Below, in pieces: positions 4,801-61,401 of a DNA stretch of 61,401 nt. The DNA comes from Girardia tigrina (lineage: Eukaryota): NCBI GenBank assembly GCA_001938485.1, contig MQRK01190407.1:1-61401 (forward strand), read 5' to 3'. Position numbers and translations under genes: made by a program. The notes under the pieces were generated by a model. It was not told where the DNA came from. It made no database searches and saw only the letters and a list, made by a program, of their open reading frames with translations. Position 1 is the stretch's first letter. Every line of letters begins with the position of its first letter.

Positions 4801-5340
4801 TCAAATTAAATTTTTAACTAAAGTTTTTACTTTGCAGCTATTAAGAACATTTAGACAAGTCTCGTTTGAATTTTTACTACAATCGCATTTAGAGTCATTA
4901 TGACTCTCAGAAAGTCCTTCATTATTTGTCATCCTTCTAATTGGTTTTCTTATTTCTATCTTTAATCATGATTATTCGAACAATTTTTAAGTCATTTTTT
5001 AAAATATTAAACTTCTAAATAATATTAATTAAAAATAATAATTTTTACCACTTCTCAATAAATCTCAAAATAATAAAAATGTTATCAAATTATTAAAAAT
5101 CTATTTAATTTAAATTTTACTAAAAATATTAAACTTAATTTTAATTGTTAAATTAAAAAAAATATGAACTTATAAAAGGATTATTTTAATTATGTTCGAA
5201 TAGTCAATCACTTTAAATTTAAATAAAAAATACCAATTTCCATCTGGGTGGGAGAATCACCATTCTAAGTTCAACATACTTAAATCAACATGCAGCATCA
5301 CTACATTTACACATTCAAACAATTTAAAATATTCCTCACA
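4801..5340 (-). repeat. TGTGAGG-family element copy A (type A), with short ORF 4932->4801 MTNNEGLSESHNDSKCDCSKNSNETCLNVLNSCKVKTLVKNLI*
   Basis: Highly similar over ~500 bp to 41620-42120. Its head is similar to 61135-61260. Confidence 0.8.
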
Positions 5341-5689
5341 GTAGCTATTTTATTATATAAATCCTCATTTATAAAACCTGTATGTAAATTTAAAGCATAG
5401 AAAGTTAAAGAATATTAATAATAAACTTGTTATTAACTAAAATAATAATATAAAACAGATATTTTATAAATTTAATTAAATTAAAATAAAAAATTAATAA
5501 AAATACTTTCCGTAATTAATAAAGTCTTGTTTTTAATTTGTTTAATGAATTATTAAATAGAATCTATAGCATCTTTAATTGAACTGGCTTTTTTGGTCCT
5601 TTTTAACAACAGTTTGTTGGAGTCATTTAACATCAATTATTTTCCGAAATGAAGATGTACGAAACCACTTAAGTTTAAAAGATCTTTAT

Positions 5690-6245
5690 TTAATCAATTT
5701 AATGAAGGAAAAACTATACAGTTAACATTAAATATTTACCATATCATTTAAAACCATAAACTTATGCTTCGTTCTCATACAAATATAATATATAATTTAA
5801 ATATAATTGTAAATTTTGTTTGCATTAATCTTTTTCTATGTCTTACGTCTTCATAAATAACGTTTGTATATATTAGCTTAAGATTAATAAATGACATAAG
5901 AATGAATTCTGGGGCCATCGAGAACTTTGAAAATTATATTTTGACATAGATAATGCTATAAAAATTGAAAATATTTTCGGCAATAAATCTCCAACACCAT
6001 TAGGATTGTGTTAAGATCTATTCATAGGTAATGGGTGTAACTCCACATACATTTGAGAGACTTTACGTCATTCCTGTAAGAGAATCCAGGAACACTGTCC
6101 TAATAACGGTAGAAGTAACATTTTTGGACATAGAAGACATCATAAAGTAGACACTTTAAAATTCTGTGCAGTCAATTTAAGAATTAAGAATTAAATGAAC
6201 GTTCAAACTGCATTATCTACAACTTTGGAGTTTTTAAATGATTTA
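5690..6245 (+). mobile_element. Penelope-like element fragments (GIY-YIG endonuclease C-terminal part)
   Basis: GCNSTYI*ETLRH...RIQEH motif at ~6030-6090. The 3' end AACGTTCAAACTGCA.T.TCTACAACTTTG is shared with 15699-15730. Confidence 0.55.
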
Positions 6246-6406
6246 CTGATGACATATTGATTACACAATCACTAACTGAACTATAAACGTAATTTTTGGT
6301 TGAAAAAATTTTTTGCTGACGATGGCGGTTAATAAACTTAATTGGCTTCAAAAATTTTTTTGATAAATTGCCAATAGTTTTTAAAAATTTAAAGTTTATT
6401 CATAAA

Positions 6407-6890
6407 TGTGAGGAATATTTGGAATGTTGTTGTTTTCTGTATTGTTTAAATGTTGTGTGTTGATTTGGGATTGTGTCTCTCATAATCAGATGGATGATTA
6501 ATATTTTTTTTATAATCTGAAACTAATTTATTCAAATTTATACTTAATATTCAATTTTTTAATTTATTATTATTGTAAATTTTAAATAGTTTTATTAATT
6601 TTATTTTTGTAAATTTTTAAATAATTAAATCAAATTAATGTTTTGAAATGATAATAAAAATAATTTTATTTTAACAAATAAGATTGAAAATAAATATTTT
6701 AAATAAAATAATTTGTTTCAAGTAAGTTTAAATTTTGGATGAGAAGTATTAAACATTCCTTGATGAATTTGAGCGAAGGCACTATTACGGATTGTCATAA
6801 AATATTTATGACAAAGATGATCCAAATTGTAATTACAATGGTTTGAAGATAATATGGATGCATACTTTGATGAATGTCATAAATATTTGA
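6407..6890 (+). repeat. TGTGAGG-family element copy B (type B), with a frameshifted short ORF from 6763 (MNLSEGTITDCHK/DDPNCNYN...)
   Basis: Homologous to 42227-43254 and 49372-49781. Confidence 0.75.
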
Positions 6891-9800
6891 CTTTGGTTCT
6901 AAAAATCTCATACTTGACGACCTAATATTATGTTATTAAAAATTTTTTCCGATATTTTGCTAAAATAATTCACAAATTCAACAATAAAATTACAAGTTTA
7001 AAACTAAAAAATGTTATACGTATTTTGTATGGTAATATGATAATCTATGAAGCATGATAAATATTTTACTTCTTAATTGATTTTATTTCTTACTGTCGTG
7101 ATTAAAACAGAAAAAAAGTGTTCCAATTTTGTTAGAAGACAAAGATTCTGCACTAAAATATACTTAATAAACTAAACTACAAGCACACAAATATCGGTTG
7201 TACACCGAATTAAGGGGAGAGTCAAAGGTTAACTCTGTTCTCGACCCCGTTATAGTTATATAATACAAATTTAGAAATATTCTAAATTTGTTAATTATGT
7301 AATATCTTATTAAATTAAATTTAATTTTGTAATATCTCACAATTTTGATTAAAATAATATTATTACTATTTTCTTTTTTCACGAAAATACTAATGTTAAA
7401 TTAAAAAATAATGTGTACATAGTTTCACATCATGAATTCAAGGTCAAAGTCGTTAGCTGTAGTAATGTTTAACGATTGTTATGACCAAATAACCATCATA
7501 ATACAATTCCTGATTCTCCAAGTATAAATAAATGTTTAAAATAATATATATAAATATTATGCATATATTAAGAGAAAATTTGATAAAAAATTGATCCAAT
7601 TTTTTATTGTCGATTATAAATGTATAGTAATTAACCCTCATTAAAACATCTTCTTTTTACCATTTCGAAAATAAATATATATATTTATTTAAAATATACA
7701 TTGAAATAAATAGGAATATATTTTTTATTTTGATTTTTAGTTGTGTAACATTATCTAAATTAAATTCGTTTCTTCGATGGTAAAATACATCAAGGGAATT
7801 GTGAACAAATACTTCGTTACAAAAGAGAAATAAGACTAATTAATAAATAAAATGAACTCTATCCCTGAAAAACTGTTCAAAACTCCAAAACGATTCTAGC
7901 GATGGTTTTTTTTGTTGTATAAATATATTAATGGACAAACTTTCGTTCAATGCCTTATAAAACAATCTATTTTCGTAAGCCCAAAAAACGTCAAGAAGCT
8001 CACATTACAAATGAGATTATGTAGGCTATTTCTTTTTAAAATCAACATTCTCTTCGAAAACGTGCTTCAAACAAGAACTGAAAGAAGAAATTGTTAAACT
8101 AAAAATAACAGAGGAGAAATAAAACTTTATTTATGAAACGAAATAAGAATTAAAATAATTAAGAAGAAAAGTTTATAATTTTTATAATTGATATTTTTTA
8201 ACGAAAAAAAACTATAAAAAAAGAAAGAATAAATTTTCAAAATTTTCCAAAATAAATCAGAAGTAATTTCCGAAATATAAAATGTTTACAGTTTGATAAC
8301 CAAACATTTTGGCAAGCATTTAGAGAATTTAATTAAATATTTATTTATATATCTTGTAATTTTAAGAAAATTTCAGTTATTTATATTATTTTATTACCAA
8401 AGACATGTATTCAAATAATTTTAATACTTAATTTTTTATTTTAATTTCAATTTTTATCACTAATTAAAATTTAATTCAAATAACGATTCAAAAAACTGAC
8501 AAATTTACTAGAATATTTTGATTTCTATAATGATCAAATTTTTAAAGGAACCTTTAAAGAAAACATCAACAGTTAATAAGTCATTCCGCAACTTTTGGAA
8601 ATAAACAGAAATGTAAAATATTGAAGTATTAAAATTAAAAATATTTATAACATATAAATATAATAATGAATATTATATGTATATATATATGTGAGTGCGA
8701 TTATGTAATAATCATAATCTAAAGTGTAACATCTTCTTTTAGGCTTGTTTCTATTTCAATAAAAATAAATTCTTTTTTAATTAAAGAAATAAAATAAATC
8801 AAATTTAAATTAAATAAAAATTTTAAACAACCTTTAAAATGTACTTACCAAAAATTTAATTTCGATGGAAAATTAACTGAAATGATGAGCGGATAGAGAT
8901 ATATGATAAATGAAAACAAATAAAAACCTTAGTAACTATTCACACTCAGTTTTATTGGATGGATTTATTTTTTCGTTTTATATTTTTTGTTCTTTATTAA
9001 TTATTTTATTATCATTATTTAAACCTATAATCCCTGTCAGATATAATGAAATTAATATGTTGTGTGAAATTCCAATATTATTTTTCAAAGGAATTAGAAT
9101 ATGAGAACACATTAATTATCTTATAATTAAAAATAATAATAAATTAATATGAACATTGAAAATTTAATTTCTTTCTTTTAAATTAAAATTCTCTTCCTGT
9201 GTTTTTCAAGTCTTTTTATAGATTTTTTTGGAATATTTTTTATTAAATATTATAGATAAAATATAATTAGAAAATGTAACCGCTTTATTATATTTTTATT
9301 GTAATTAATTTTATTATTTTTATTAATTTTTCGTAAAGATCGAAATGAAGAGATTTATTTAATTAAATGTTTGAGGTGTTTGAAGAAATAATGAAGTGAT
9401 GATTTTCATTTTGTTGATTTAATTATTTTATATTATTAAAAATTAAACGATTAAAAATTAAATTTTATATTATTAAAAATTTAACGATTGAAATATGTAA
9501 TTAAATATTTGTAAAAATATTACAAATTTATTTTATTTTCGAAGTGCATTCAAAATCAAAACCGTTTAATCTTAAAGAATTTATTTTTTAGATATGATAA
9601 ATATACGAAGGTCTTATTCAGAGATGAATTGAGAAGAAGGAAAATTTTCAGAAATAACAGATTCACGGCAATATTCAAAAAGGAATTTTAAATATCTCCA
9701 GTATTGAAATAAATGACAAAAACTATGATGTATTTATTTTCAATACTATTTTAATTAATAAAAAAGGTTAAGTTGCAACTCTTTCTGTTAAGCTATGTTA

Positions 9801-9989
9801 AATTTAACTATATCAAAAAAATGCTTAACAATGTAGTGTTTTAAAAATTTAGATAAATTTTTTCTGATACTTATAAGATTATAATGCTTGGTTCCTATAA
9901 ATAATTATAATAGTTTTATCACCGTATTCTATAAAGACTGTTTAACGCCTGCACATATTTTAAATATATTTTTAAGTATAGTATTTTGT

Positions 9990-10340
9990 AGTCGAATGCG
10001 CAAAGCATTTCGACAAGTATACCATATGAAGTGCTAGTTGCCGGATCGAGCTAAAGCAATCCGGACTTCTTAACCATGAGGGAAACAGTTGGCCGAGGAG
10101 GTCACCAAAACGTTTCGCGGGGGCTCCTGAACCGGTTCGACCCAGTGTCCACCGGTATGCCTGCATTCGAGTGTCAAAGTTTGGCTCCGTGCGTTGTCGT
10201 TATTCACTTGACAATTGGTCCGATCTCGTAGGACGGCTGATTCGGTCGGTCTGTCGGTTTGCAACCCAATGGCCCAACCGGTACGTTCGAGTGAATTGTT
10301 TGTTTGGCGCTCACACAAGTGAGACGCAAGTAGATTTGGT
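9990..10340. mobile_element. GC-rich fragment, probably a retroelement remnant
   Basis: Abrupt high-GC island abutting and truncating the piggyBac fragment. No diagnostic motif recognised. Confidence 0.3.
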
Positions 10341-10364
10341 TTTTTTTATTTTGGTGGATTAACA

Positions 10365-10710
10365 GGAGAACCACACCATATTTAATAATTTCCGAAGGAA
10401 TGTAAATTTTGAAATTAAATCGTCCAAGCCATGGTATCATTCCTTCATTGATTATAACGTTTTTTCAAGATTAAAGCTTTCTCAAAACATTTTACAAAAG
10501 TAATCTTTTTTTATGTTGCATCTTGAAGAATAGATCAGCATTCTTCGGATTACTACTGTTTTCAGAAGAATGTAGGTATGGTAAGATTTGCTTTTATCCC
10601 CAAATAGTCATAGTTATTCGAAATGCTGGAGTTTCCAGAAACGGATTTATCGACCAATAATCGTCCATTCTAATCTTTTTACTGTTGGGTTTGATATCAC
10701 TAATGGAATT
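10365..10710 (-). pseudogene. piggyBac (PGBD) transposase fragment
   Basis: DDYWSINPFLETPAF...LPYLH...INEGMIPWLGRFNFKIYIPSEIIKYG matches the piggyBac DYWS...TP.F...LHF...IDE.M.P..GR..FK.Y.P.KP.KYG pattern. Contains stops and frameshifts. Confidence 0.85.
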
Positions 10711-11684: not shown

Positions 11685-14600
11685 TGTAGTGGAAATGTCT
11701 AAAAGTTGTTTAAATAATCAGAATTCGGTAAATTGTTGGGAAATCTTGTGATATAAATAAATTCTTATTTTCGATATTCTCGTTCACAAGCTATCGTGGC
11801 TTTGTGATGAAGACTCTGAAAATCGTGCCGGCGTATGATTGTATTCTTTTGGACGGATTGAACATCAGGCAGCGGTGAGCAGAGCGAAGCAACTGGCACG
11901 CACGCGGATTGACGATTCTGATTTTATAGCCGAGTTTGACGGCCGCTCATGGACGGAATTATGGAAGTGGAAGATTGGTGAGGAGCCACCTTAGTCACTT
12001 GTGAGAGTGGCCGCATATGCGTCAGCCAAGCAGTAGGAAGAAGAGGTGAGTCAGGAGTTGTCCAAATAGAAAAAAAATGGATGGCTCATCAGTTTTATGG
12101 CAAAGCAAAGGCGATTTTGCCTCTGATAGCGGTGGCTCAGACGGCCAAGGGAAGGTGCAACCGGTGCTAGACTACAAAGCTTTAAACGAGTTCATGTCCA
12201 GCCCCACCGCAGAAAACCTGGTGTGCGCTGAAAAGCTGCGCAGATAGCGGAAGATTGCTTGAGATAATTGATTTTAGGCGGGCATATCTCCAAATCAAGG
12301 TGCACTCGAGAATGTGGCCCTATCAAGTGATCCACTACTAGGGGAAGACGTGGTGCCTGAAGCGACTGGATTGAACACGGAACCAAAAATTACGAGGCTC
12401 ATCATGGACAACGTGCTCAGGTCTGATCCACAAATTGCGGAAGCTGCAGATGCTTACTATAATGATATTATAATTAACAGCAGTAAAGTATCAGCGGAGC
12501 GTGAAAAAAAAACCGCCGGTAAAAATTAATGAAGATAGAGTGCTTGGACTCGGAGTGCGGTAGACTGACGGCATCGAGACGGCAATATACCGGATTTACC
12601 AAACCGTTTAACGCGACGGAAGTTATTTTCATGGGTCGGTCAGCTCGTAGGCCATTTCTCGGTCGGCGGTTTGCTGAGGCCAGCATGCAGTTTTATTAAA
12701 AGGCTGGCCTGCAGAGGCGGGTGGGACGATACAGTAGAACCACGTGTAGTGGATATGGCGCAGAAATTGGCGGAACGGCTAGAGAGCGAAGACCCGGTGA
12801 ACGGCAAGTAAGAAATTCTTCTTCTTTCTTTTTGACCTTAGCCGTTGGGTCGCTGGTGCACCAAATAATAAACAAGCCTTAGCCACATTTCTCTATTCGT
12901 AGCTTCTTCTCATACGTGGCTTCTTTCCATACTCAATCCACTCCATTCTTTTAAATGGTTTCTTTGGTCTTCCTCTTGGTCTTTTTCCTTCCACTTTTCC
13001 TTCAGTCATAAGTGGGAAATACCTGACCGAAAATACGGTCGAGTGTAGTGTAATGCAAGTTCGATCGCAACCGGTATCTCTGTAGAGATAGGAAGAGCGG
13101 TAGACGAGGATACTTCGTAGCTTTGCAAGGAGGATGACGCCGCTCACATCAATCTGGCATAACTTAAAGCGGCTAAGGAGGCAATAAAGGAAGCAGTCGC
13201 GTAGGGATTAAAAACATGGATATTATGAGAGACTCCGCCACTGTGTTCCGGTGGTTGACAAACACTACGAGAGTCAATGGACCTGTCAGATCCAGTGGAA
13301 TGAGCAAGCTGCTCATAAAGCGACACATCTGCACAATCAAGCAGACTATCGAAGAGGAGCAGCTTCGTGTGGAGTGGAAATTTGTCAGTTCAGCAGAGAG
13401 CCGAGCAAATCGCCTCACTCGCGTGCCTAGTGACTGGCTAATAGCAGTAAAGGATCAACCGAATGTAGCGGCAGTAACGATGGAGGGAGAGCGGCAGCCG
13501 ATAGATCGTCTGCAGGCGCTTCATGCTATCCACCATTTCGGGGTGAAGTGGATGATATTCTTGGCGAGAAAATTGTGGGGTCCAGGGCAAATAACTGAGA
13601 AGCAAGTGCAGATGGTGGTGAAAGGATGTTTTGAGTGCGCATCAATCGACCAGTCACCGGTAAAGTGAGAGAAAGGCAAGCTTGGCGTCAAAGAAACATG
13701 GAAGTGGCTCGCGATATGTGACACACACATCTAAGGGAAAGTACATGACACTGGTAGATTGCGGACCGGGGTGGTTCGCGGTTTGGAGAAGGATTGCTTC
13801 AGAATGCGATGAAGATTTATGTACCACTCTGAAAGCGGTGTTCAATGAATTCGGTCAACCACAGGAGTTTCTACAGGAAAATTTTACGACACATCGTGGA
13901 GCAGTAATCCGACAATTGTCTTAGGCAATGGGTGTCAAAATGCGGTTTCAGTGCGCGAATCGACCTCGTAAAAACGGTATCGTTGAACGCTGCCATCAAA
14001 CCAAGAAGCGCATGGCGGCACAAAGTTGGAAGCCAGTTCACAATATGGTTGCGTGGTACAACGCCACTCTAAATTCGACGGGCGTGATTCTGGCGTCCAC
14101 AGTGTTAGCACAACGGCAGCGACTGCCGCTACCGGTCTATTTTGCAGATCGGCTTCCAAAGTACACTGGCGTTTTACAGACGAAGAGTTTACAAGTTGGA
14201 GACGTCGTGTTCGTGAAACCGATAAACGCTAAGTACACGATTAAGTGGAGACGAGCAGTCGTGAGCGGATTCCGCCTACCCCATGAAGTCAAGATTGACG
14301 GGGTCCCCTTCCACGTGTCACACATAAGGCGCGTGCCAGACGGCGGGTCAAAAATGCCGGCAGAGGGACTATCGAGTTCGCGAGCGGTCTCCAGATTTAC
14401 GAATGCAGGCGACTGCAGTGAGAGCTCAGACGAGGAAGACGAGCAGACATTGAATAGTATAACGGATGAAGTAAAAAACTGTCAGACTCAATCCGAAGAG
14501 GTGGGGCAACCGAGTCCGAATCGAGCGTCCGTTCGGCCGACGCGATTCGCAAATTATGTGTGCACTGGAGGGACATAACCAGATCCGAGCGTGACTTTCC

Positions 14601-14750
14601 AGTGCACAGAGGGCATATGCGTTTGTGCCTTGAAGGCAAGGGAGAGTGTAGTACAGATGTTGAAAAGTTGTTTAAATAATCAGAATTCGGTAAACGGTTT
14701 GAAAATCTTGTGATATAAATAAATTCTTATTTTCGATATTCTCGTTCACA
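11685..14750 (+). mobile_element. Ty3/Gypsy LTR retrotransposon, internally deleted and degenerate (RT, RNase H, integrase)
   Basis: 104-bp LTRs at 11685-11788 and 14647-14750 (TGTAGT...TTCACA). 5-bp TSD TAATT on both sides. Purine tract GAAGGCAAGGGAGAG before the 3' LTR. RT-like DAYYNDIIIN, integrase HHFGV...C..C, LVDCGPG and NGIVERCH motifs are present, broken by stops. Confidence 0.95.
12817..13009 (-). mobile_element. 5'-truncated RTE-clade LINE 3' end inserted in the Gypsy pol
   Basis: MTEGKVEGKRPRGRPKK (RTE C-terminal motif), a GAA-type tail, and an imperfect 11-bp TSD AAGTAAGAAAT (12806-12816) / AAGTGGGAAAT (13010-13020). Confidence 0.8.
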
Positions 14751-19653: not shown

Positions 19654-22600
19654 ATCTAAATTAATAGAAAGAATGGAAAGTAATAACTAATTATAATATG
19701 CAACATTGTTATAATTAAAATTCATAAATTTAACTTCATTCATAAATTTAATTATCTCAAAAAACATTTCTCATTATCGATGTATTATAAAAATTCAATA
19801 AAGTTTATTATTTTTATTGGTTGAAGATCATTATAGGCAATTAATAATAATTAATTAGATTCAATTTTTAAACATATATTACATATACATATCGTTGTAC
19901 TTATAATATATTTATATTAATTGATTCATTGATATATATGAAATATATAAACTAGTCAAAATTAAAATTTGTATAATCATCGAGAAGCAATATTCTTTTG
20001 GTTATCATTTCAACCTCAGAATACTGATCGAAATGCGTTTTCTCTACATCAATATGTTCATATGCATAGTCAATAAAAATAAAATAGGTTATATTCGCTG
20101 CAATTTCTAAATTGTTCTGGAGACTCTCCGTTGTTAGCAGAATCATAATGTTTGTGGTACTGGGCTAATTTGTATTGATAAATAGTTATTCATTGATGAC
20201 TTATGTTTTAAAATTGTTATATCTATGTATATATATAAAATGTAAAATAATAGAAAGAATGGAAAGTAATGACTAAATTATAATATCCAATATTGTTATT
20301 AATAGTATTGTGTGAATTGTAAAAAAACCGTCAGCAAATAATTCTTTCAAGAAATTCAAGATTCAAAATAATTGTTCGATACAGTCCCAGGTTGTCCTAA
20401 AAACTGACCAATCAAAGCAGTCAAAGCACTGGATTTGCTGCCGTTCACGCTGGGCCCATTTAAAATTGGGTATTCATTTTAAAATCGTTTTTTATTTTAA
20501 ATTATTTCAAAATCTTTTTTTATTAAATTAATTATTCTTTTTTAACATTATCTTTATGTATACATAAATAAATGTATATATACAGTCGTGGGCATAATTC
20601 ACCGGCCACCCTTGCATTTTAAAGAAAATTAATATCTACGTGCGTGTGTGGATGTAAGTGCATGTAAATAATGTTCTTAACCAACATCCAATAAGAATAC
20701 AGCTTTAGGAGTATACCCACTATGTTATTATGATATATAAAAGTATTTGTGTCAAGTATTTGTGACTATTCCGACATGACTAGCAACCAACTTTTACCCA
20801 CTCTGTAGGTACTAATCGTCGATTTACAGGACACTGGATTCTCGAACCGTGCAATTGCCCTGCGAATCAATATTAGCAGCGCTGCAGTAGCCGACACTCT
20901 CCGTCTTCATCAAGCCACCGGCGCCTTTGCGTATACGAAAAGCAGTGGAAGGCCGCGTATCATAAGCAAAGTGACAGATCGAGCCATTTTGAGATCCTGC
21001 AAGATCAATCAATTTGCTTGTTCCCGTGCAATACAAGCTGATCTTTCAGCTAACATTGATAAATTACCTAGCGCACGAACCATTCGTCGACGTCTGGTTG
21101 AAGGAGGCTTTCGATCGTACAAGTCTGTCAAGAGACCGCGTATATCGTCGAAGAATATTCGTGATAGGCTCGCGTTTGCAAAAGCTTACCAATATTGGAC
21201 AGTGGATCAATGGCGTTCGGTTATTTTCAGTGATTAAACCACAATCTGTCAGCAAGGAACATAGATCCACACGGTGCGCCGGCCGCCTGGTCACCGCTTT
21301 AGACTACAGTACAGAGGGCGCCTAAAGTTATGATTTGGGGCGCAATTGCTGCCAGAGGTCGCTGCTGTCTTTGGTTTTGTCCCAAGGGAACTACTATCGT
21401 TTCACTTGTGTACAATGGCATTCTTCGAGATAAGGTCCAACGCTTCTTTCAAATGCGTCAGTGCAATTCTTTCCAACATTACGGGGCTCCATGCCATCAA
21501 TCGCGACTAAACAAAGCCTGGTTGGAAACAAACGAGATCAACGTTCTGGGTCCATGGCCTGGCAACTCACCTGATTTATCGTCGATTGAAAATAGTTGGA
21601 GAATAGTGAAAGAAAAGGTTTGTAAGCATGACCCCTCATCATATGATGACCTACTTGACGTGATTAAACGTGTTTGGGTACAGGAAGTCAGACTCGAATT
21701 CACTGAAAATCTAATCACGTCAATGCTACGCCGATTGGCAGGAGTGATTAATGCAAAAGGTGGCCATACAAAGTACTAAGGGAAGAGTGTTTGAACTGTG
21801 CATCCATATCTGTATTCTTCTTATAATTTGTATGTACTGAATATATCCTTAATACTTCGTTACAATATCAGTTAGTCGAAAATCTCAGTATTTTTACGGG
21901 TGGCTGGTAAATTGTGGCCACTTTCATTTTGATGTAAGTTCCATTTTTAATGAATTTTATGATTTTTAAGTTCAAATTTATTGTTCGCAAACCTAAGTCG
22001 CTTATGTTTTTAAATTAAATAATGGTAATATAATTGCTGCGTTNNNNNNNNNNNNNNNNNNNNNNNNNNNNNNNNNNNNNNNNNNNNNNNNNNCCTAAGT
22101 CGCTTATGTTTTTAAATTAAATAATGGTAATATAATTGCTGCGTTATATATATATATATAACGCAGCAATTATATTACCATTATTTAATTTAAAAACATA
22201 AGCGACTTAGGTTTGCGAACAATAAATTTGAACTTAAAAATCATAAAATTCATTAAAAATGGAACTTACATCAAAATGCTGAAGCTTTTTAGAGGAAAGA
22301 ATTCAAACTTGAAATTCCGAAACTTCTTATCCCCATTGATCCCTCTCTATTGTCATCGGTCTTCTACTGGGTCCATCGTATCCTTTTCGAAGAAAATGAT
22401 TTGATGTTAATACATTCTCTTCTTAATATCTAAATCCAAAATCAATAACGAGCTTTCATTCAAAAAGTTTCTATTTTTGTCATAATCGTTATTAATTAAT
22501 TAATGTCATAAATCTTACATGAGTCAAACATTTTAAAATATCGTTAAATAATAGCACAAACATATGGAGTATGTAATATAAAAATGAAATGGTGGAATAT

Positions 22601-41575: not shown

Positions 41576-42120
41576 TCACGGACATAAATGTATTACACTT
41601 TTCTTGAGATGTTCACTTTTAAGAACATTTAAACAAGTCCCGTTTGAATTTTTATTGCAATCCCATTTAAGGTCATTATGACTCTCAGAAAGTCTTTCAT
41701 CGTTTGTCATCCTTCTAATTGGTTTTCTTATTTCTGTTTTTAATCATGATTATTCGAACAATTTTTCTAAGTTATTTTTTTAAAATATTTAACCTCTAAA
41801 AAATATTAATTAAAAAGTAATAATTTTTACAATTTCTCAATAAATCCCAAAATAATAAATGTCATCAAATTACAAAAAAATGCATTTAATTTAAATTTTA
41901 CTAAAAATTATTAAACTCAATTTTAATTGTGAAATTAAAAATATAAACTTATCAAATGACTATTTTAATTATGTTCGAATAGTCAATCACTTTAAATTTA
42001 AATAAAAAAAATACCAATTTCCATCTGGGTGGGGAATCACCATTCTAAATTCAACATACTTAAATCAACATACAGCATCCATACATTTACACATTGAAAC
42101 AATTTAAAATATTCCCCACA
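41576..42120 (-). repeat. TGTGAGG-family element copy C (type A), with short ORF 41710->41576 MTNDERLSESHNDLKWDCNKNSNGTCLNVLKSEHLKKSVIHLCP*
   Basis: Close paralogue of 4840-5340. Confidence 0.8.
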
Positions 42121-42226: not shown

Positions 42227-43320
42227 TGTGAGGAATATGGGATGTATAATAGTTTTTTGTAGTGTTTGCATGTTTAAATGTTATGTGTTGATTTTGGATT
42301 GAGCCTCTCCTAATCAGATGGATGATCGATATTTTAATTCTTATAATCTGAAACTAATTTATTTAAATTTAGATTTAATATTCAAATTTTTAATATTGCA
42401 ACTTTTAAATAATTTTATTGATTTTATTTTTGTAAATTTTTAAATAATTAAAATCAAATTAATGTTTAAATAATAAATAAAAAAGTTTTAAAAACCACGT
42501 TTTCATATGGACTAAAAAGAGGAAAATAATTTTTTTCTAGACATGTGAGAAATTTTATACCTAACCAAAAACGTGGGGTGGATTTCNNNNNNNNNNNNNN
42601 NNNNNNNNNNNNNNNNNNNNNNNNNNNNNNNNNNNNNNNNNNNNNNNNNNNNNNNNNNNNNNNNNNNNNNNNNNNNNNNNNNNNNNNNNNNNNNNNNNNN
42701 NNNNNNNNNNNNNNNNNNNNNNNNNNNNNNNNNNNNNNNNNNNNNNNNNNNNNNNNNNNNNNNNNNNNNNNNNNNNNNNNNNNNNNNNNNNNNNNNNNNN
42801 NNNNNNNNNNNNNNNNNNNNNNNNNNNNNNNNNNNTGAGATGCAGAGATGCTAAAATCTCAAAATGTCAGGCAGAAGAAGCCTACATAAAAAATTTCAGA
42901 ACGATCGAATGAGTGGAAGTGGTCTAAAAAAGCGTGTGAAAAGTGAAACATCACTAACAAACAGAAAGACAGACAGAACCCAAAGCAAGTTAAGTAAAAC
43001 GTGGTAAAATGACTATAGAAATATTTTATTTAAGCCAATAAAATTTAAATTAAATATTTTTTAATAAAATAATTTTCTCAAGTATAGTTCAGATTATGAG
43101 AGATATTGAAAATTGAGTGATGGATTATATTGAAAGCAATACTATTGATCATCATAAAGATGATAAGAAATGTGAATGTAATAAATGTTCTGTCAAATGT
43201 GTGAGTTCTCTTAACAGTGTCGTAGACTCTTGTAGTACATATAGAAAAAGCTAAGCGCAATCAAATTCAAATTATTTAATACCTCACAAAATTCGTTTGT
43301 TTCTGAGTTGTAAGTTATAA
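42227..43320 (+). repeat. TGTGAGG-family element copy D (type B), with short ORF 43120-43254 MDYIESNTIDHHKDDKKCECNKCSVKCVSSLNSVVDSCSTYRKS*
   Basis: Collinear with copy B once the 42490-43009 insertion is removed. Confidence 0.78.
42490..43009. mobile_element. Helentron-associated (HINE/DINE-1-like) non-autonomous element
   Basis: Subterminal inverted repeats ACCACGTTTT / AAAACGTGGT, an extra internal AAAACGTGGG and an ACAG microsatellite, inserted in an A/T run. Confidence 0.55.
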
Positions 43321-45555: not shown

Positions 45556-47036
45556 TACCATTTTTCGTTCAATTTGAACATTTTGTTTTTCAAATTGAAC
45601 ATTTTACCAATGAATCGCAACATTTTATTATACAAATTGAACATGTATAAAATAAAAAAACAAGATATGATAATAGTTTATTAATATATTAACAACTCGT
45701 AATAACAACTTGTTTAATGATGAAAATATGGCAATTCAGCTGCGTAGTTTATAATATTTCAAAAAATTGTTCTTAAAATATTCCGCGCTATCTGATGCCG
45801 TGATATTATTCGTTTCAGATAACGTCAGTTCAGACAACAATAATCCATTAGTTCCAAATCTTAATTTTGATCTTACACCATTCTTAATTTTGAAAAAGCA
45901 TTTTCAATAGGGTTAAGCATATAAGAAGAATAAGGTGAAAGGAATTTAAATTCAAAATAAAATTCTGAAGTTATTCTTTCAATTTCTTTTTTTTATGTAA
46001 TCTGGCGTTACCTATTATTAAACAAGCTTTTTGCATATAAAGAACATTTCTCAAAAAGCAACATAGGGTAGTAATATAATTAGTAAAAATATTAGCATTG
46101 ACGGTAGAGTTTTTTTTCCGTTGACTGTCATACTTGTAATTAAAGAAATCGATCTACCTCTTACTCTTGGTGTTGATACTATAGCACGAGTTCCTTGCTT
46201 CGATCTCGCATGAGATCTTTTTAAATGTAAATTAAAAAATGATTCATCGATAAATATCGCCCCTGAAAAATCATTGTTGAAATGGTTGTTAAACCACAGC
46301 GCATATTCCTTTCTCAAAATGATTTTTTCGACCGAATTAAACTCTATCCAGCCCTCTATGGAAAAGTTTCATAGTTATTTTTAGCTCTTCTAGGCAGTTA
46401 TTAATGCTAGAAATTGATATCGAAATTTTCGAATCGGCTGCTTGCTCAAGCTTTTCTTTAATTTAAACTATGGGTTAAATGTAACGATCTCCTCAATTTT
46501 GTTTATATTATGCGCTGTGAGAACTGCTCTTATTGAACCACCTTTTGCTTTGAGGTTAACAATATTGTGCTTGTTATATTTATTGACTATTACTCTTGCT
46601 GAATTATAGTTAATTTGAAGCTGAATTATAGTTAATTTATAGTTACTCTGAAGCTTCTAATATACTCTGTTCTTGTTCACAGACGAGTCTAATTAAGCTT
46701 TGGCGTTTTTCATTGGATATTTTAGCATATTAAACTCTTGTTGGGGTTTGATTTGCAGGATTAACTGTCAAGGCAGTATTGTTCGAATTATATGAATCCA
46801 TTTTGATTTTTGAAAAAAGCGTGAAATTGCGTTAAATAAATTTAAACAAATTAATTTCTTTTTTATATTTCTATATTTAATATTAACCCTAACTTATTTA
46901 TTAGGTTAGTTATTAGTTAAAATTTTTGATTTAAAATTTTGAACAAAATGTTGCGATTCATTGATAAAATATTCAATTTGAAAAATAAAATGTTGCGATT
47001 CATTGATAAAATGTTCAATTTGACCGGAAAATGGTA
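45556..47036 (-). mobile_element. IS630/Tc1-like DNA transposon with degenerate transposase
   Basis: TIR TACCATTTT.CG.TCAA.TTGAACATTTT with subterminal repeats, in a TATA context. Motifs INYNSARVIV...KGG, IFIDESFFNLHLKR...RGRSISLI and LSPYSSYMLNPIE. Confidence 0.88.
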
Positions 47037-49371: not shown

Positions 49372-49815
49372 CGTGAGGAATATTTGGAACGTTTGATATT
49401 GATTTGGCAGATAAATATTTTAATTATTTTATGAAATTAATTTATTCTAATTTATTTTTAATTTATTATAATTGTAAATTTAAAAATGATTTTACTAATT
49501 TTATTTTTAAATTTGTAAATTACTAAATTAAATTAATATTTTAAAATGATTAACAGTTATTTTAATTTAACCAATTAAATTTGTAGTAAATATTTAAATA
49601 TAATATGTAGTTCAGATTTTGAGATAATAAACTTTGTAATAAACTAAGTAATAAACTTTGATCGATGAATATGAGCAAAAGCAATACGACGGATTGCCAG
49701 AAAGATGATCCTAATTGTAATTGTAATAAATGTAGTAACAAATGTGTTAGTTCTCTTAACAATTTCAAAGAAAAAATGTAGATCATTCAACAACTTAATC
49801 AAATTTCATGTGATT
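49372..49815 (+). repeat. TGTGAGG-family element copy E (type B, head internally deleted), with short ORF 49665-49781 MNMSKSNTTDCQKDDPNCNCNKCSNKCVSSLNNFKEKM*
   Basis: The ORF and its flanks align with copies B and D. Confidence 0.72.
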
Positions 49816-49818
49816 TAA

Positions 49819-50962
49819 CGGGATGCGGAATTAATTCCGCGTTTGAATTAATTTAGCATCGGAATTAATTTTGGGTGAAAGAATTAATTATGCGAAAAAA
49901 TTAATTGTAAATCGAAATTAAATCTCAATGCTATAAAATATAAAATTAAAAATTTTCCGGAACCAAAAATAGGTAAATTGGAATTAATTTCGCATTTTTA
50001 TTTAATGGTTATTCTTAGGAAGAGGAAAAATCCAAGGTTTGAGTTTTTGGAAATTGGATGTAATACATTTCAGCTTAGTCGCGCTTTTAAATTATGATTG
50101 TGAGGAATGTTTTGAATTATGTGTTGATATTGTGAATGTTTTATGTTGATTCGAAATGTGCCTCTCATACATAGATGGATTATTGGTATTTTCTTTGATT
50201 CCTACTAATTAAAAATAATTTAATTTAATTTTAAAGTAAAAAGATTTAAAATAATATTTGAATGTATTATTTATTTTTTAATGTAATTTAAAATTTTAAT
50301 ATATTAATTTAATATGTTCTTTTTTAAAAAAAATTTAGATTTAATTTATTAATATATTAATTTAATATGCTCTTTTTAAAAATGTTTGGATTTAATTTTA
50401 ACCAATTAGATTCTTTACAATTAATAATATTTATTAACAGATTTTCATTTATTGAAAATAATTAGTATGAACTCAGAAATATGTCGATCAATAAAAATGT
50501 CACATACTGAATGCCCTTGTGATATTACTAAATGTTGTAAAACTCATATTGATATTGTTAATAATGATTATTTTAGGGAAGAGAAATTTAGGTATGAATT
50601 TTGTGAATTGAATGTAATACATTTGATGATAGGGTTTAGATTAGGGTTAAGGTTATGATTAGGATTAGAATTAGGTTAGGTGTTACGGTTAGAGTTATGG
50701 TTTAAGTTTAGGTTATAGATTTTATTGAGTTATCAGAAAATTTTAATAATGAAATCATTAAATTGTCGCAATTTACTTATTCTGGGTTCCGGAAATTTTT
50801 TAATTTTATATTTTATAGCGTTGGGATTTAATTTCGAGTTGGAATTAATTTCGTAAAATTAATTAATTACAATGCGAAATTAATGTTAACGCTGAATTAA
50901 TTCTAACGCGTAATTAATTCAGAGAGAAATTAATTCCAACGCGTAATAAATGCTGCCACCCG
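49819..50962. mobile_element. Foldback/MITE with ~170-bp inverted arms (GAATTAATT repeats) and an internal degenerate TTAGGG tract; hosts family copy F
   Basis: 49860-49980 is inverted relative to 50770-50900. CGGG/CCCG ends. TTAGGG-like repeats at 50631-50715. Confidence 0.7.
50099..50630 (+). repeat. TGTGAGG-family element copy F (divergent), with ORF from 50467 MNSEICRSIKMSHTECPCDITKCCKTHIDIVNN...
   Basis: Same head boxes (TGTGAGGAATGTT, TGTTGA, CCTCTCATACATAGATGG, ATTGGTATTTT) and a similar spacing to the ATG. Confidence 0.7.
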
Positions 50963-56625: not shown

Positions 56626-57329
56626 ACCCTAATGAAATAATGGATTTTTAAATAATTGATTTAAAAGTAATATATAAAGACAATGATAATTATGCTTGTA
56701 CTAATTTTAAAAGTTATTCTAATAATAAAAATTTGAATATTGTAAATTATTTTTTGTATTTATATTGTATTTAAAATAATTGTAGGTAAAAATGCTTTTA
56801 AACTGAAATATTGATAATAAATAAAAACGTTAAAATCTTTATTAATTAAAAAACTTTTCCCAAATAAAAGAAAATAACATTAAACTAATTCTAAAATAAT
56901 AAAAAATCATTTCGGTTAATTTAGTAAAAATATGACTACAAAATGATTGATTATGACTACAAAAATTGGTTTTAATTTAAATTAAATTGCATAAAATAGT
57001 GGTATGTAAATTTTCAAAAATAAATAGAATAAACAATTTCAATTTTAAAATAACTTATCAGTATTTATAATTTCATATTTTTATATAACAATCTGGTCAA
57101 AAAGAAAACGAAGAAAAGTTCCTCAACAAACAATTGTTATTAAAAAATTGTTAACTAAAAATTGTTTGAATAATTGTTAATTGTATTATAAATAAAATTC
57201 TGGTGTTAATGAGTCTTAATCTCGATCAAGAACCCAATATTTATATTTGTAAACCTTGAATGTTTCAACTATTTTTAAAAAAGTCGAATTTGGCCTGAAA
57301 TCCTATAACTGGCAAAGTAAATTGCTTGC

Positions 57330-59870
57330 TGATGAGGACGGACCTCACCCACGACAGCGCGTCGCCATGGCATTGTACACCTCGGGTTCGCCGGTTTCAC
57401 AAACACTGCATCGGCCGCTCGGAACTCCGAATTGTTCTTGACCTCGCTTTTGGTATTCGGCTCGCAAAATCCCTCGGTAGTAGTAATTGCCTCTGTTGCG
57501 CGAAAACTGTGGACGCTGGAATTATGTCAGATGAATTTGGCATCGCGTTGTACAACACGATTATATCCTTGATTGATTCCCCGCTTCTTGCTGGCATGTG
57601 CTTAATCGTTCGATGATAACGATCGACGATCCAATTTCCACTCGGCCGATTTGCGCATCGGAACATGATCTCGACGCCCACTCAGGTCAGCAATTCTCGG
57701 ATCGCTATTCTAGATTGGTTGCGAAATTGACCATCAGGAGTTCTCGCGGCGGCCCGAATTCAGCAAATACTACCCTGAAAGCGGCACACAGCTCTCATCG
57801 CTTTCGGATCTAATTTTTCGAGGCAATGAGAATCGTCCTGGCCCGCAGTCCACCAACGTCATAAACTTCCCCTTGGTGGTGTGCGTTATTACGGAAAGGA
57901 GTTAATGAATCAAAGATCCTCCCTAACTCGCCTACGCAATCACGTAATATAATACAATGAAAATAAAAATTATATAAATTAGTGAAATTATAATTATATA
58001 ACAATTAAAAAGAAGTGGGTAAGAGTCAACAAGATAGCTAGTAAATCACAGGACAGAATCACAAGAAATAGGGAGAAAATATCACTGGGATTTAACGTAA
58101 AAAGAAATGATAGTTACTTTTTAGTCACGATCAAACTCAGATTGGTTTCGATAAGGTATAGGGGAGAGTATCGGAAAAATATCGATGATAAATAGTTGTT
58201 CCCGCCCTGTTTTCGCTCGGGGATTGATTGGATTGGGGAACTTTGTATCCTTTGTTCGGTGGGGAAAATTTGATCTGATTCGATTTAGAGTCTCGATCAA
58301 TCTCGAGGTGGTCTTGATAGAATACGGGAACAGTATCGAAATAGTATCGATAGTAAGTAGCGGTACCTGCTCTGTTTCTGTTCAGGGATTGATTGGATTG
58401 ATAAGCTCTGTTAATCTTGTTCGGTGGGGGAAAATTTGACCTGATTCGATTGTTTCCGTATTCACGAATGGTCCAAGTGAATTAATTAATTCACTGACAG
58501 TTAATCGGAAACGGATGATTTTTTGTTTCGTTACCACGATTGTAACGTTCGACAACAATTGCTTTTCTTTTAGTAACCAAAGTTAATTATTTATTTTCGT
58601 CTAATTTAGATCAATTATTATTGATCTTTTTATTTGCATTAATTTTGTATTGCCATAGGCAATATTCTTCTTCGCATAATATTAAAGAAAATAATAATAT
58701 TTAAAAAAATGAATATTATGTGAAGCTGTTGAAATAAAAAGTAAAAAAAAATAACAAACACACTGAAAGCAGGAAAATCATAAAAAAATAAAAAAATGTC
58801 ACAAAAATAAGCGACATACACACAAAAATACAAACGGGAAATAATGCGTCGGTAAAAAAAATAAAACCCGCAACATGCGTTACATACATTGAGAGTCTGT
58901 GCTATGCATTGCATTTCTCCCATTTCATTGCTGTGGGATCAATTGACGCACACTGAGAACACTTGTTTACGACCGCTCGGATTTGACTCTCGGATACACG
59001 GCCAGGGCCCCATAGTCTTCTCGCCAGGATTTTCATTCTTTTCAATTCGAAATTGTGAACCTTGTGGAGTGTTTCTAGACTATCTGCTGTCCCATGCTCT
59101 ACTTCAATTCCAACGGCCACCACTTTGAATGTTCCTTTTGCTGGCGACAACTAGTCATTCAGTACTCTCGTGAGGTCATCTGCTTTATTCTCTGCTGAAC
59201 TCATTAACTTCCATGTTACATTCAGTCATTCTTCTTCAGTTATTTGGCTGATGATACTTATCCATCGTTTCACCAACAGCACGCTCATTCCCTTGGATTT
59301 GACTGGTCCGTTGCCCATCAACGCATTTGCAATCCATCTGAAAACTATGGCAAAGCCCGTCATGATCTCGAACTCGTCCAGGCCTCATGCCACCGCCGCT
59401 TCAACTGCTTCGATCGCTGCCTCCAGTTACTCCAAGTTTATGTGCGCTGCGTAGTCCTATTTGCGCAGTCAAGTTGAATCCTTGACAACTTCTCTCCTAA
59501 TCCCTACAGAAATTCCAGTTGCAAGAGAACTCGAATCGTACCACATACGTTCGCGTCTGCATTTCGGAACGTCCCATCTCTTGGTCACAGAGTCCTCGCT
59601 CTTCAGTCGTTTCTCTAGCTTTTTTTGCGATTTCCGCCACATGCAAATCTAGAGGCTCATTCCATCCACCACCATTGACTGCTCCCTTGAGGAAAATACA
59701 TTTTCGCCTTAACCAGCTGCCAACTGGGAAATGTCCCAATAGTTGACCAACTCAGGAGAAAAGTTTGCACCGCGTCAACTGATCTGGTAGTTATGGGATT
59801 TTGCCGTCTGTGAAACACCACAGTTCTCCTTTGGATTCACACACAGCGAGTCCGAGTACCCTTCCGTCGT
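57330..59870 (-). mobile_element. Degenerate Gypsy pol (RNase H and integrase), same family as 11685-14750
   Basis: LARRLWGPG...CSQCASIDP, KGKFMTLVDCGPG and FRCANRPSGN.IV.R.HRTIK mirror the 13.5-14.1 kb peptides. Confidence 0.88.
57887..58875. mobile_element. Probable solo LTR (989 bp) nested in the Gypsy integrase
   Basis: 5-bp TSD TGCGT (57882-57886, 58876-58880). Termini TATTACGG...CCGCAACA. Internal direct repeats at ~58219-58285 and 58385-58452. Removing it restores YVTH-TTKGKFMTLVDCGPG. Confidence 0.8.
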
Positions 59871-60577
59871 TGATAAATAAAGATAATAAAATATATAAGA
59901 AAACAGTTTAACAATCGTTTACTGACAGAACCTTTCATTATGTATTTAAAGTCACTCTAAAATAACTCATAAATCCAAATGATCTTTTCAAATCATTTCT
60001 ATAAATATTTTGATTAACTTTATCGTAAGACTAATAAATAAAAAAATAACAAATAATTAAATCAGAGTAAAAATGATGTTGTAAAAGTAACGTTAACGGA
60101 ATAAAATAACAAATGTCACAACACTAAACTGAAATTATAAATTTAACTTTTTAGATGTTGTTGCAACACGAACAATGGTAACGGAGATATAGAATCTTGT
60201 TATCGTTGATTTTGGTAGCAAATACGTGGTTATCTTGTTTCTAAATCATATCTTTTGCTTCGATGATTTGTATTTTCAATTGGTGATAAATTGTTCGGGA
60301 TATATATCCAAATATTGGCGCTTGGTTGATACTAATTACTGTCCAAAAAAGACAAATTGGCAAAGTAAAGTAATTTCTTGGCAATTCAATTTTGCCATTG
60401 AATTTCTTTTATTTGAATTTTAAATTATAATTCTGAATAATAATTTTGATGCAGTAGGATGGAGAAATTCCGCCTGATTTTTATTTCCAGGCCGTCAATT
60501 TTCTCTTTCTTTCGTTTCTTTTCAAATTCCCAATTCATGTACAAAACAAACTGACAAACAATCAAGTGAAAATATTT

Positions 60578-60612
<35 letters not shown>

Positions 60613-60691
60613 CATTTACATACTTTAGTTAAAATAAAAATCAAAATATACAGTCTTGCCTTACAATGAATATAGGAAGAAAGCAAATACA

Positions 60692-60770
60692 GAAGGGATC
60701 GTTCGCTTAATACGTAACAAGAAAATAGCCTTTTTTGACCCCCCTCCACCATTACGTAACGTAACAAATA
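60692..60770 (+). mobile_element. MITE terminus (Harbinger-like)
   Basis: AAGGGATCGTTCGCTTAATACGTAAC...GACCCCCCTCC...CGTAAC pattern. Confidence 0.4.
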
Positions 60771-61134
60771 TTTTTTTCAAAGTTATATATAAATAAATCA
60801 CAACTCGATCAATTGTTTATAAAAGTTGATGATTTTTTCACAAACTTACAGTAAATTTTGTTGGCTATATTTAAAAATGTACTAGAAAAAATGTCAAACT
60901 ACCGAAATATTTTTAAAAAGCAAAACACTTTCAAAAATGAATTAAATTTATTTAAGATATACAAAATTTGCATTTTTTGTAGACATCATTTATTCATTTT
61001 CCCAAGGGTTTAAAGTCAAAAACTGGTATGGAACCCTCGGATGATTTATCGAAATTTATTGTTGAATTTACTATCACATCATCCATATCTATCCATTCGC
61101 ATGTCTCCAATCCTGGTGATTCTTCCGTAATGAC

Positions 61135-61401
61135 TGTGAGGAATATTTTAAATTTGGTATGTTGAAATTGGTTTGTTGAATTTTGTATGTTGAGTTTAGT
61201 ATTTGGAAATGTGTTTCTCCCACCCAGATGGAAAATTGATATTTTAGATGTTCACGATAAATAATTATTCGAGTATAATTTCTATAATTTATATTTTAAA
61301 GTACAACATAAGATATTTAAAAACATTAAAAAATATTAAATCTTTTCAAATCTTCATATTAAAATTTAAATAAAATAATTTTCAAATAAAATTAATATGT
61401 A
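61135..61401 (+). repeat. TGTGAGG-family element copy G (type A), runs off the window
   Basis: TGTGAGGAATATTTTAAATT, TGTTGA repeats, TTCTCCCACCCAGATGGAAA and TATTCGAGTATAATT are shared with copies A and C. Confidence 0.78.

What the first reader, a model, noticed from the sequence alone, without database searches (positions are those of the whole stretch)
4801..61401. Unclassified dispersed family: sharp TGTGAGGAATATT end, conserved boxes and a downstream Cys-patterned micro-ORF (7 copies in 61 kb)
Seen: heads at 5340(-), 6407(+), 42120(-), 42227(+), 49372(+), 50099(+) and 61135(+). Homology starts abruptly at TGTGAGGAATATT, and upstream flanks are unrelated. Next come 1-3 TGTTGA motifs, a TCTC-N6-AGATGG box (absent from the deleted copy E) and an ATTRRTATTTT-like box. 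Sequence between boxes is much more divergent than the boxes, as expected for constrained protein-binding or promoter elements. After a nearly pure AT spacer, an ATG sits ~290-410 bp from the head (insertion in D removed) and opens a short ORF: KDDKKCECNKCSVKCVSSLNS (D), KDDPNCNCNKCSNKCVSSLNN (E), HNDSKCDCSKNSNETCLNVLNS (A), HTECPCDITKCCKTHIDIVNN (F). At least three subfamilies share this layout. Inference: a mobile promoter-plus-small-metal-binding-peptide cassette. It could be the TG-start of very long ORF-containing LTRs (giant Gypsy elements such as the planarian Burro families are an established precedent for very large LTR elements) or an undescribed element or micropeptide gene family. 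I found no TSD or second terminus.
Basis: partly seen in the sequence, partly recalled or inferred. Interest (0 to 1): 0.8.

Follow-up and report, generated by a model that had tools for sequence, protein, structure and literature searches.

The report
Solo LTRs carrying a Gag stub
These repeats are leftover end-pieces (solo long terminal repeats) of a retrotransposon, and the apparent small cysteine peptide is the first 31 or so codons of its capsid (Gag) gene, which starts inside the end-piece, as it does in yeast Ty1.

Summary
All 7 heads are real, but the claim of no TSD and no second terminus is wrong. Five copies share a distal end matching TTAA(C/T/A)A. They are flanked by 5-bp target duplications: exact in C, D, E and F, 4/5 in A; chance is 0.003 per exact match. 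B has an exact duplication at a non-homologous end, and G runs off the window. They are solo LTRs of 390-500 bp.

The 'micro-ORF' starts 94-97 nt before the LTR end and has no stop inside the element. A profile of five stubs found a 379-aa protein whose first 31 residues match copy A at 27/31. It continues into a capsid-fold, two-zinc-knuckle Gag. All 7 related Gags carry such a leader before an invariant N-M-A-T, which fits LTR end plus a TGG primer-binding site. So gag begins inside the 5' LTR, as in Ty1, and solo-LTR formation cuts it.

The conserved N-K codons coincide with an AATAAA-type signal, and the Cys pattern is not conserved. No full-length DNA or Pol was seen, so Ty3/Gypsy is likely but untested. 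Host and Repbase/Dfam status are unknown.

The parts
4839..5340 (-). Solo LTR A, 502 bp, starts TGT, ends TTAATA; TSD GCTAC (5341-5345) / GCTGC (4834-4838), read on the element strand
4840..4932 (-). Gag N-terminal stub in A, 31 codons from ATG to the LTR end; 27/31 identical to residues 1-31 of Gag P0003
6407..6983 (+). Copy B. Its 5' 255 bp is about 90% identical to D over aligned columns. The stub begins near 6763 but is frameshifted by a 14-nt insertion relative to E, and the 3' part is not homologous to the other copies. The end is tentative (TCAACA plus exact ATAAA duplication).
41617..42120 (-). Solo LTR C, 504 bp, 90% identical to A, ends TTAAAA; exact TSD GTGAA
41618..41710 (-). Gag stub in C, 31 codons; 26/31 identical to P0003; Trp where A and P0003 have the conserved Cys
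42227..43216 (+). Solo LTR D, 990 bp including a nested insertion of about 510 bp (42495-43004), ends TTAACA; exact TSD GTGTC
43120..43215 (+). Gag stub in D, 32 codons; 30/32 identical to residues 1-32 of Gag P0007; AATAAA 37 nt before the LTR end encodes its Asn-Lys
49372..49761 (+). Solo LTR E, 390 bp, internal deletion in the 5' boxes, starts CGT, ends TTAACA; exact TSD ATTTC
49665..49760 (+). Gag stub in E, 32 codons; 22/32 identical to P0007
50099..50563 (+). Solo LTR F, 465 bp, third subfamily, ends TTAATA; exact TSD ATGAT; sits between the inverted arms of another repeat
50467..50562 (+). Gag stub in F, 32 codons, same frame and register; no close Gag found (best 10/32, P0006)
61135..61401 (+). 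Copy G, 5' 267 bp of an LTR cut by the window edge; solo or full-length cannot be told

Best explanation
The copies are solo LTRs of several related families of an LTR retrotransposon, most likely Ty3/Gypsy-type, read in the TGTGAGG-to-TTAACA direction. SHOWN: bounded units with TG..(C)A-type ends and 5-bp TSDs; an ATG 94-97 nt before the 3' end in a fixed frame; near identity of that frame to the N-terminus of full-length Gag proteins with a capsid fold and two CCHC knuckles. INFERRED: (1) Full elements integrated with a 5-bp staggered cut, and LTR-LTR recombination then removed the interior, leaving one LTR between matching TSDs. (2) In the full element the 5' ~110 bp is the U3 integrase-attachment end plus enhancer or promoter boxes, transcription starts upstream of the ATG, and gag is read through R/U5 into the interior. 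(3) The LTR's last A and a primer-binding site starting TGG form the invariant Asn-Met-Ala-Thr codons. (4) The AATAAA-type poly(A) signal 37-40 nt from the end is read as Asn-Lys, so the leader is under both nucleotide and reading-frame constraint. In a solo LTR the stub is a fossil with no stop of its own.
For: TSDs are exact at 4 of 5 homology-defined ends and 4/5 at the fifth, against background 0.003 and 0.034. The frame is open from ATG to the end in 5 of 6 complete copies, against 0.008-0.024 by chance for a fixed frame. A stub profile against 1.84 billion proteins gave 5 hits: one 379-aa Gag, three 38-42-aa stub-plus-unrelated-tail peptides, and one spurious cadherin repeat. 7 of 7 related Gags carry a 26-49-aa leader before an invariant N-M-A-T, and 6 of them were retrieved by whole-protein similarity rather than by the stub. 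tblastn of these Gags hits the window significantly only at the stubs of A, C, D and E. zf-CCHC is found in 7 of 7. Atlas neighbours at 0.93-0.96 are mostly zf-CCHC, Retrotrans_gag or Ty3_capsid clusters. Model residues 42-200 match retro-capsids in ranks 1-27 of 50 rows, e.g. PEG10 CA-CTD Z 10.0, rmsd 2.7, 84 aligned. Indels: 0 in the stub versus 9 in 402 upstream columns (A/C) and 5 in 98 (D/E). LTR motifs agree with PMC3601003, and the Ty1 precedent is in PMC3522557.
Against: No DNA of a full-length element was seen: the PBS, the LTR-gag junction and Pol are inferred from protein alone (searches found nothing). Termini depart from TG..CA in 4 of 6 complete copies (A and F end ATA, C ends AAA, E starts CG). 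B does not fit at its 3' end. pN/pS in the stubs is 0.71 (D/E) and 0.58 (A/C) on few sites, and keeping the frame open had null probabilities of 0.096 and 0.61, so window data alone do not prove coding selection. The upstream indels are mostly in AT runs. Foldseek gave no hit at E<=0.001 (best dArc1 6.9e-3), and the model's mean pLDDT is 55. Use of the upstream AUG is not shown; gene callers take the first ATG. In Drosophila 5-bp TSDs typify Pao rather than Gypsy (PMC3276498).
Confidence: 0.93

Rival explanations
1. The copies are solo LTRs, but Gag really starts at the second Met (the LTR/PBS junction). The upstream frame is an untranslated by-product of poly(A)-signal and attachment-site constraints.
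For: Met32 is invariant in 7 of 7 Gags. The leader is the least conserved region (mean 33% identity versus 54% for capsid), has pLDDT 35-39, and its conserved residues coincide with AATAAA and TTAAC.
Against: An in-frame ATG and open frame survive in 7 of 7 Gags and 5 of 6 window copies despite 12-53% leader identity. Substitution-only simulation keeps this in 4-6% of runs at 35% divergence. Length differences between the N-K codons and the end are whole codons.
Confidence: 0.2
2. One reading: a mobile promoter-plus-metal-binding-micropeptide cassette, or a host micropeptide gene family.
For: Open frame, Cys-rich text and lack of indels in the stub. Three database entries are short stub peptides.
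Against: There is no stop inside the element and the tails differ in every copy and database entry. The same residues head 370-397-aa Gags. Cys count is 2-5, C has Trp at the conserved Cys and B is frameshifted. No Pfam hit for 4 of 4 stubs tested. Best Atlas score is 0.82, within chance.
Confidence: 0.03
3. Non-autonomous DNA transposon (MITE-like, TG..CA ends) made by internal deletion.
For: Fixed-length TSD and dispersed copies with two sharp ends.
Against: Only about 3 bp of perfect terminal inversion. The ORF runs through the terminus in register in three subfamilies, and it continues as capsid plus zinc knuckles, not as a transposase.
Confidence: 0.02
4. Solo LTRs with a Gag stub as in the best explanation, but from a Ty1/Copia or BEL/Pao element rather than Ty3/Gypsy.
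For: 5-bp TSD is the Pao length in Drosophila. The top structural row is the Copia capsid (Z 11.0, rmsd 12.7, 156 aligned). The gag-in-LTR precedent is a Copia-group element.
Against: Gag is a separate ORF with its own end, and 5 of 7 have Q-G-N-E near the C-terminus, compatible with a G_GGA_AAC -1 shift site (PMC5009743; DNA not seen). Atlas neighbours carry Retrotrans_gag and Ty3_capsid. That BEL Gags have three knuckles and one long ORF is recalled, not tested.
Confidence: 0.25

Closest known systems
Solo LTRs of LTR retrotransposons (PMC5751070, abstract and passages; PMC3601003, passages)
   Same: Single LTR between matching TSDs; TG..AACA-type ends; AATAAA near the 3' end; several diverged subfamilies.
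   Different: Each carries an ATG and 31-32 codons of gag. The 5' end TGTGAGG departs from the general TGTTRNR consensus.
[quoted passage not shown]
   Same: gag starts inside the 5' LTR, so the primer-binding site lies in coding sequence.
   Different: This Gag has two CCHC knuckles and an invariant second in-frame Met at the LTR/PBS junction, and its poly(A)-type hexamer is in the coding frame. The leader is about 95 nt; Ty1's is shorter from recall. The host here looks like an animal. It works like Ty1 in this respect but is not shown to be a Ty1/Copia member.
Ty3/Gypsy (Metaviridae) Gag: Arc, PEG10, PNMA and Ty3 capsids (PMC6525542 passages)
   Same: CA plus NC layout, two-lobe capsid fold, CCHC knuckles, possible -1 frameshift motif near the Gag end.
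   Different: Cys-containing 26-49-aa leader encoded by the LTR; 5-bp rather than the 4-bp TSD typical of Drosophila Gypsy (PMC3276498).
Planarian Burro giant retroelements (PMC11410931 passage: >30 kb; PMC8532177 passages gave no LTR structure)
   Same: AT-rich, TE-dense host context.
   Different: LTRs here are 0.4-0.5 kb. Multi-kb Burro LTRs are recalled only, as the primary paper was not held. No sequence comparison was possible.

Membership tests
Solo LTR of an LTR retrotransposon | Fixed-length 4-6-bp TSD flanking a single repeat unit | tested here: met
   5-bp TSD exact in C, D, E, F and B (B's end tentative), 4/5 in A; 4, 6 and 7 bp fail in 6 of 6; background 0.003. G is not testable.
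Solo LTR of an LTR retrotransposon | TG...CA termini with short imperfect inversion | tested here: met
   TGT start in 6 of 7. ACA end in B, D and E; one-base variants in A, F (ATA) and C (AAA). D and E ends match YNYAACA of PMC3601003.
Solo LTR of an LTR retrotransposon | Poly(A) signal near the 3' end | tested here: met
   AATAAA 37-40 nt from the end in C, D and E; AGTAAA in A; ACTAAA in F; ATTAAA at 49 nt in B. Function not tested.
Solo LTR of an LTR retrotransposon | Same sequence borders a retrotransposon internal domain elsewhere | tested here: met
   At protein level: stubs match residues 1-31/32 of Gags P0003 and P0007 and end exactly before M-A-T. Not seen at DNA level.
Solo LTR of an LTR retrotransposon | Paired LTRs with PBS and PPT in a full-length copy | tested here: inconclusive
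   No PBS-like start after any of 6 ends in the window, as expected for solos. No DNA copy among prokaryotic genome contigs. PBS inferred from invariant N-M-A-T only.
Ty3/Gypsy (Metaviridae) | Gag with retro-capsid fold and CCHC nucleocapsid | tested here: met
   Shared with Copia and retroviruses, so not diagnostic.
Ty3/Gypsy (Metaviridae) | Pol order PR-RT-RH-IN and RT phylogeny | not testable with these tools
   No linked Pol; the search of longer proteins gave 0 hits among 5832 candidates.
Ty1/Copia (Pseudoviridae) | Pol order PR-IN-RT-RH | not testable with these tools
   No Pol available.
BEL/Pao | 5-bp TSD | tested here: met
   PMC3276498. Not exclusive to this group.
BEL/Pao | Single gag-pol ORF with three Cys-His knuckles (recalled) | tested here: not met
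   7 of 7 proteins end at 370-397 aa with two knuckles; only non-fused lengths were searched, and no fused form was found.
Metal-binding micropeptide gene family | Self-contained ORF with own stop and conserved Cys spacing | tested here: not met
   No stop inside the element in 5 of 5; Cys count 2-5.
Burro giant Gypsy elements | Very long element and LTRs; sequence similarity to Burro | not testable with these tools
   No Burro sequence on hand; LTR length here is 390-504 bp in the clean copies.
Any Repbase/Dfam consensus | Sequence match to a described family | not testable with these tools
Rfam gave 0 matches and there is no tRNA gene in the window.

The most novel reading that the evidence does not exclude
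An animal Ty3/Gypsy-type lineage makes two Gag forms from two conserved in-frame AUGs, one inside the LTR and one formed by the LTR/PBS junction where the primer tRNA anneals. Primer binding could then switch the RNA between translation and packaging. The LTR-encoded Cys-containing leader may act as a minimal matrix-like targeting tag. Its solo LTRs, about 5% of this window, would scatter promoter-plus-ATG-plus-31-codon starts that read into flanking DNA and could seed new genes.
Probability: 0.2. Interest if true: 0.55.

Novelty: new member of a known kind. Interest (0 to 1): 0.27.

Why it matters
Mostly ordinary: solo LTRs are common debris in large genomes. The point worth keeping is architectural. 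Across Gags only 38-67% identical to P0003, gag starts about 95 nt inside the LTR, so the poly(A)-type signal, the integrase-attachment end and the primer-binding site are all also coding sequence. Seven literature searches (listings and abstract starts, one hit read in passages) gave only Ty1 as a precedent, but they cover open-access text only. The practical lesson is that such solo LTRs generate false 'conserved micropeptide' calls; three such entries are already in a protein set.

Tried and rejected
Pfam on 4 stubs: no family. Atlas on residues 1-45 of P0007: best 0.82, chance level. PDB sequence search with P0003: only weak nucleocapsid-type hits, best E 0.038. Foldseek: no hit at E<=0.001. 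Gag alignment against prokaryotic genome contigs: 0 of 600 pattern matches confirmed. Head-plus-box DNA pattern in the same collection: 3 loci, all about 49% GC, with no Gag and at best a weak profile score (E 0.079), rejected as chance. Phage collection: no match. Longer Gag-Pol search: none. Host identification through the USP8-like ORF: 0 hits among 1374 candidates, so the host is undetermined. Tracing myosin exons past 39.5 kb: 0 of 58 short ORFs hit Pfam (58 peptides chosen from the 115 listed), so whether C-G are intronic is unknown. Pfam on 149 ORFs, nearly all chosen from the 204 listed: 3 hits, two myosin and one mariner. Reverse orientation (head as the U5 end, antisense ORF) was rejected because Gag continues on the TGTGAGG strand past the TTAACA end. 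P0004 (cadherin repeats, 16 profile positions) was dropped as spurious before counting. Left unchecked: accessions and names of P0001-P0005, the DNA around any Gag hit, the metagenome and viral contig collections, Repbase/Dfam, and the primary Burro paper. No supplements were read; element annotations in supplements could bear on novelty.
Full report
OBSERVATION. The boxes are as described, except that E has no TGTTGA in its first 140 nt and C's box is one base short. DNA profiles of the two ends found only the copies they were built from (6 for the 5' profile, 5 for the 3' profile), so there are no further copies in the window. The window is about 28% GC. It holds spliced host exons (myosin head), a USP8-like ORF and many transposon remnants. 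It looks like a TE-rich animal genome, but the host was not identified.

SECOND END AND TSDs. Self-BLAST alignments stop at the same distal point in A/C and in D/E, and F aligns to that point. The five bases before each head recur straight after that point: GTGAA (C), GTGTC (D), ATTTC (E) and ATGAT (F) exactly, and GCTAC/GCTGC (A). Background rates are 0.003 and 0.034, and lengths of 4, 6 and 7 fail in 6 of 6. B has an exact ATAAA after TCAACA at 577 bp, but that end was chosen by the duplication itself and is not homologous to the others, so it is tentative. G is cut by the window edge. The units start TGT in 6 of 7 and end TTAACA or a one-base variant. An AATAAA-type hexamer lies 37-40 nt from the end in A, C, D, E and F. 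This is the LTR anatomy described in PMC3601003 (passages). One LTR between matching TSDs is the expected product of LTR-LTR recombination (solo-LTR formation: PMC5751070, abstract and passages; retention of the TSD is from general knowledge).

THE MICRO-ORF. In A, C, D, E and F one frame is open from an ATG 94-97 nt before the end right to the end, with no stop inside the element; chance for a fixed frame is 0.008-0.024. B is frameshifted. A profile of the five stubs, run against 1.84 billion proteins, gave 5 hits. Three are 38-42-aa peptides made of the stub plus unrelated tails, as solo or 3' LTRs would give. One is a spurious cadherin repeat, dropped. One is P0003, 379 aa, with the stub at residues 1-31. 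P0003 has six relatives at 38-67% identity. All seven begin with a 26-49-residue leader followed by an invariant N-M-A-T. Window stub A matches P0003 at 27/31, C at 26/31, D matches P0007 at 30/32 and E at 22/32; F has no close partner (best 10/32). Similarity to the window stops exactly at the LTR end, and no Gag body is in the window.

THE PROTEIN IS GAG. zf-CCHC is found in 7 of 7. Atlas neighbours at 0.93-0.96 are mostly zf-CCHC, Retrotrans_gag or Ty3_capsid clusters. In the model (mean pLDDT 55; residues 1-44 below 50), residues 42-200 align to retrotransposon and retroviral capsids in ranks 1-27 of the wide search: Copia capsid Z 11.0, rmsd 12.7, 156 aligned; PEG10 CA-CTD Z 10.0, rmsd 2.7, 84 aligned; dArc2 C-lobe Z 9.8, rmsd 2.3, 82 aligned. 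Foldseek ranks dArc first but only at E 6.9e-3. These Z values alone are middling for helical folds; the agreement of the list is the evidence.

HOW IT WORKS. Shown: termini, TSDs, and continuity of the stub with Gag. Inferred: the Met of N-M-A-T uses the LTR's last A and the TG of a primer-binding site beginning TGG, so the PBS abuts the LTR and lies in coding sequence. Transcription must start upstream of the ATG if the leader is translated. The first ~110 bp with its boxes is then the U3 attachment end and enhancer or promoter region; box function is untested. The Asn-Lys found in all 7 leaders coincides with AATAAA in C, D and E, so part of the apparent peptide conservation is the poly(A)-type signal and the attachment site read in frame. 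Cys count varies from 2 to 5, and a C-x-x-N-K type motif is found in 6 of 7 Gags and 4 of 5 stubs, which is not a conserved metal-binding pattern. Five of seven Gags have Q-G-N-E near the end, compatible with the shift-prone G_GGA_AAC heptamer (PMC5009743, passages). With a free-standing gag this points to Ty3/Gypsy; I put that at about 0.7.

IS THE LEADER TRANSLATED? For: it is open with an ATG in 7 of 7 Gags although leaders are only 12-53% identical, and substitution-only simulation preserves this in 4-6% of runs at 35% divergence. There are no indels in the stub, against 9 in 402 and 5 in 98 upstream columns. Against: pN/pS is 0.71 and 0.58 on few sites, pairwise nulls for staying open are 0.096 and 0.61, upstream indels sit largely in AT runs, related sequences are not independent, and the second Met is invariant. 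I put translation of the leader at about 0.8.

COMPARISON AND NOVELTY. A gag that begins in the 5' LTR is known from Ty1 (PMC3522557, figure-legend passage). Searches showed no Gypsy example in their listings, but they cover open-access text only and I read no supplements. In Drosophila 5-bp TSDs typify Pao and 4-bp TSDs Gypsy (PMC3276498, passages), which keeps the superfamily open. Burro elements exceed 30 kb (PMC11410931, passage); PMC8532177 (passages) gave no LTR detail, and the primary paper was not held. LTRs here are about 0.5 kb. PMC6525542 (passages) was used for the Gag layout and the virus-family classification. Whether the family is already in Repbase or Dfam is unchecked.

UNEXPLAINED. 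B's 3' 200 bp; the two head-to-head pairs (A/B and C/D) that combine the same two LTR types although their TSDs and flanks differ; and ATA ends in both A and F.

VERDICT. A real feature, explained: solo LTRs with an amputated Gag N-terminus. New member of a known kind with an uncommon, Ty1-like layout; interest 0.27.

Noticed in passing
window 11685-14750 (+); related fragments 57275-59751 (-): A second, unrelated LTR retrotransposon with 104-bp LTRs (91% identical), exact 5-bp TSD TAATT, a purine tract before the 3' LTR, a DUF7047 hit and fragmented pol-like frames.
   Followed up: partly
window 5340/6407 and 42120/42227: Two head-to-head pairs, each of an A/C-type copy on the minus strand and a B/D-type copy on the plus strand, 1066 and 106 bp apart, with different TSDs and unrelated spacers. 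Coincidence or clustered insertion; unexplained.
   Followed up: partly
all seven insertion sites: The 5 bases upstream of the head start with a purine in 7 of 7 and with purine-T in 6 of 7 (GCTAC, ATAAA, GTGAA, GTGTC, ATTTC, ATGAT, ATGAC), hinting at target preference; not tested statistically.
   Followed up: no
window 42495-43004: Nested non-coding insertion in copy D with short inverted ends (CCACGTTTT / AAAACGTGG), an assembly gap and a GACA microsatellite near one end; recalls Helentron-associated elements (recalled lead only).
   Followed up: partly
window 49828-50920: Element with inverted arms of about 150 bp (81% identical) and telomere-like GGTTAG-type repeats; solo LTR F is inserted inside it and E ends about 65 bp before it.
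   Followed up: partly
window 27573-28202 (+): USP8-like ORF with USP8_dimer (E 3e-18) and only the start of a rhodanese domain; exon or truncated copy. No longer homologue was found.
   Followed up: partly
window 34968-35216 and 39033-39393 (+): Myosin-head exons separated by both ~46-nt and multi-kb introns, a mix that recalls flatworm genomes (recalled, untested).
   Followed up: partly
window 20809-21779 (+), 30426-31157 (-), 38132-38568 (-), 46051-46368 (-): Broken Tc1/mariner transposase remnants (Pfam hits for parts of each).
   Followed up: no
window 21925-22278: Perfect 119-bp inverted repeat around a 50-N gap plus a 52-bp direct duplicate; foldback element or assembly artefact.
   Followed up: no
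window 1897-2025: GC-rich 21-bp tandem repeat containing the palindrome GTTGCCATGGTAAC next to a gap.
   Followed up: no
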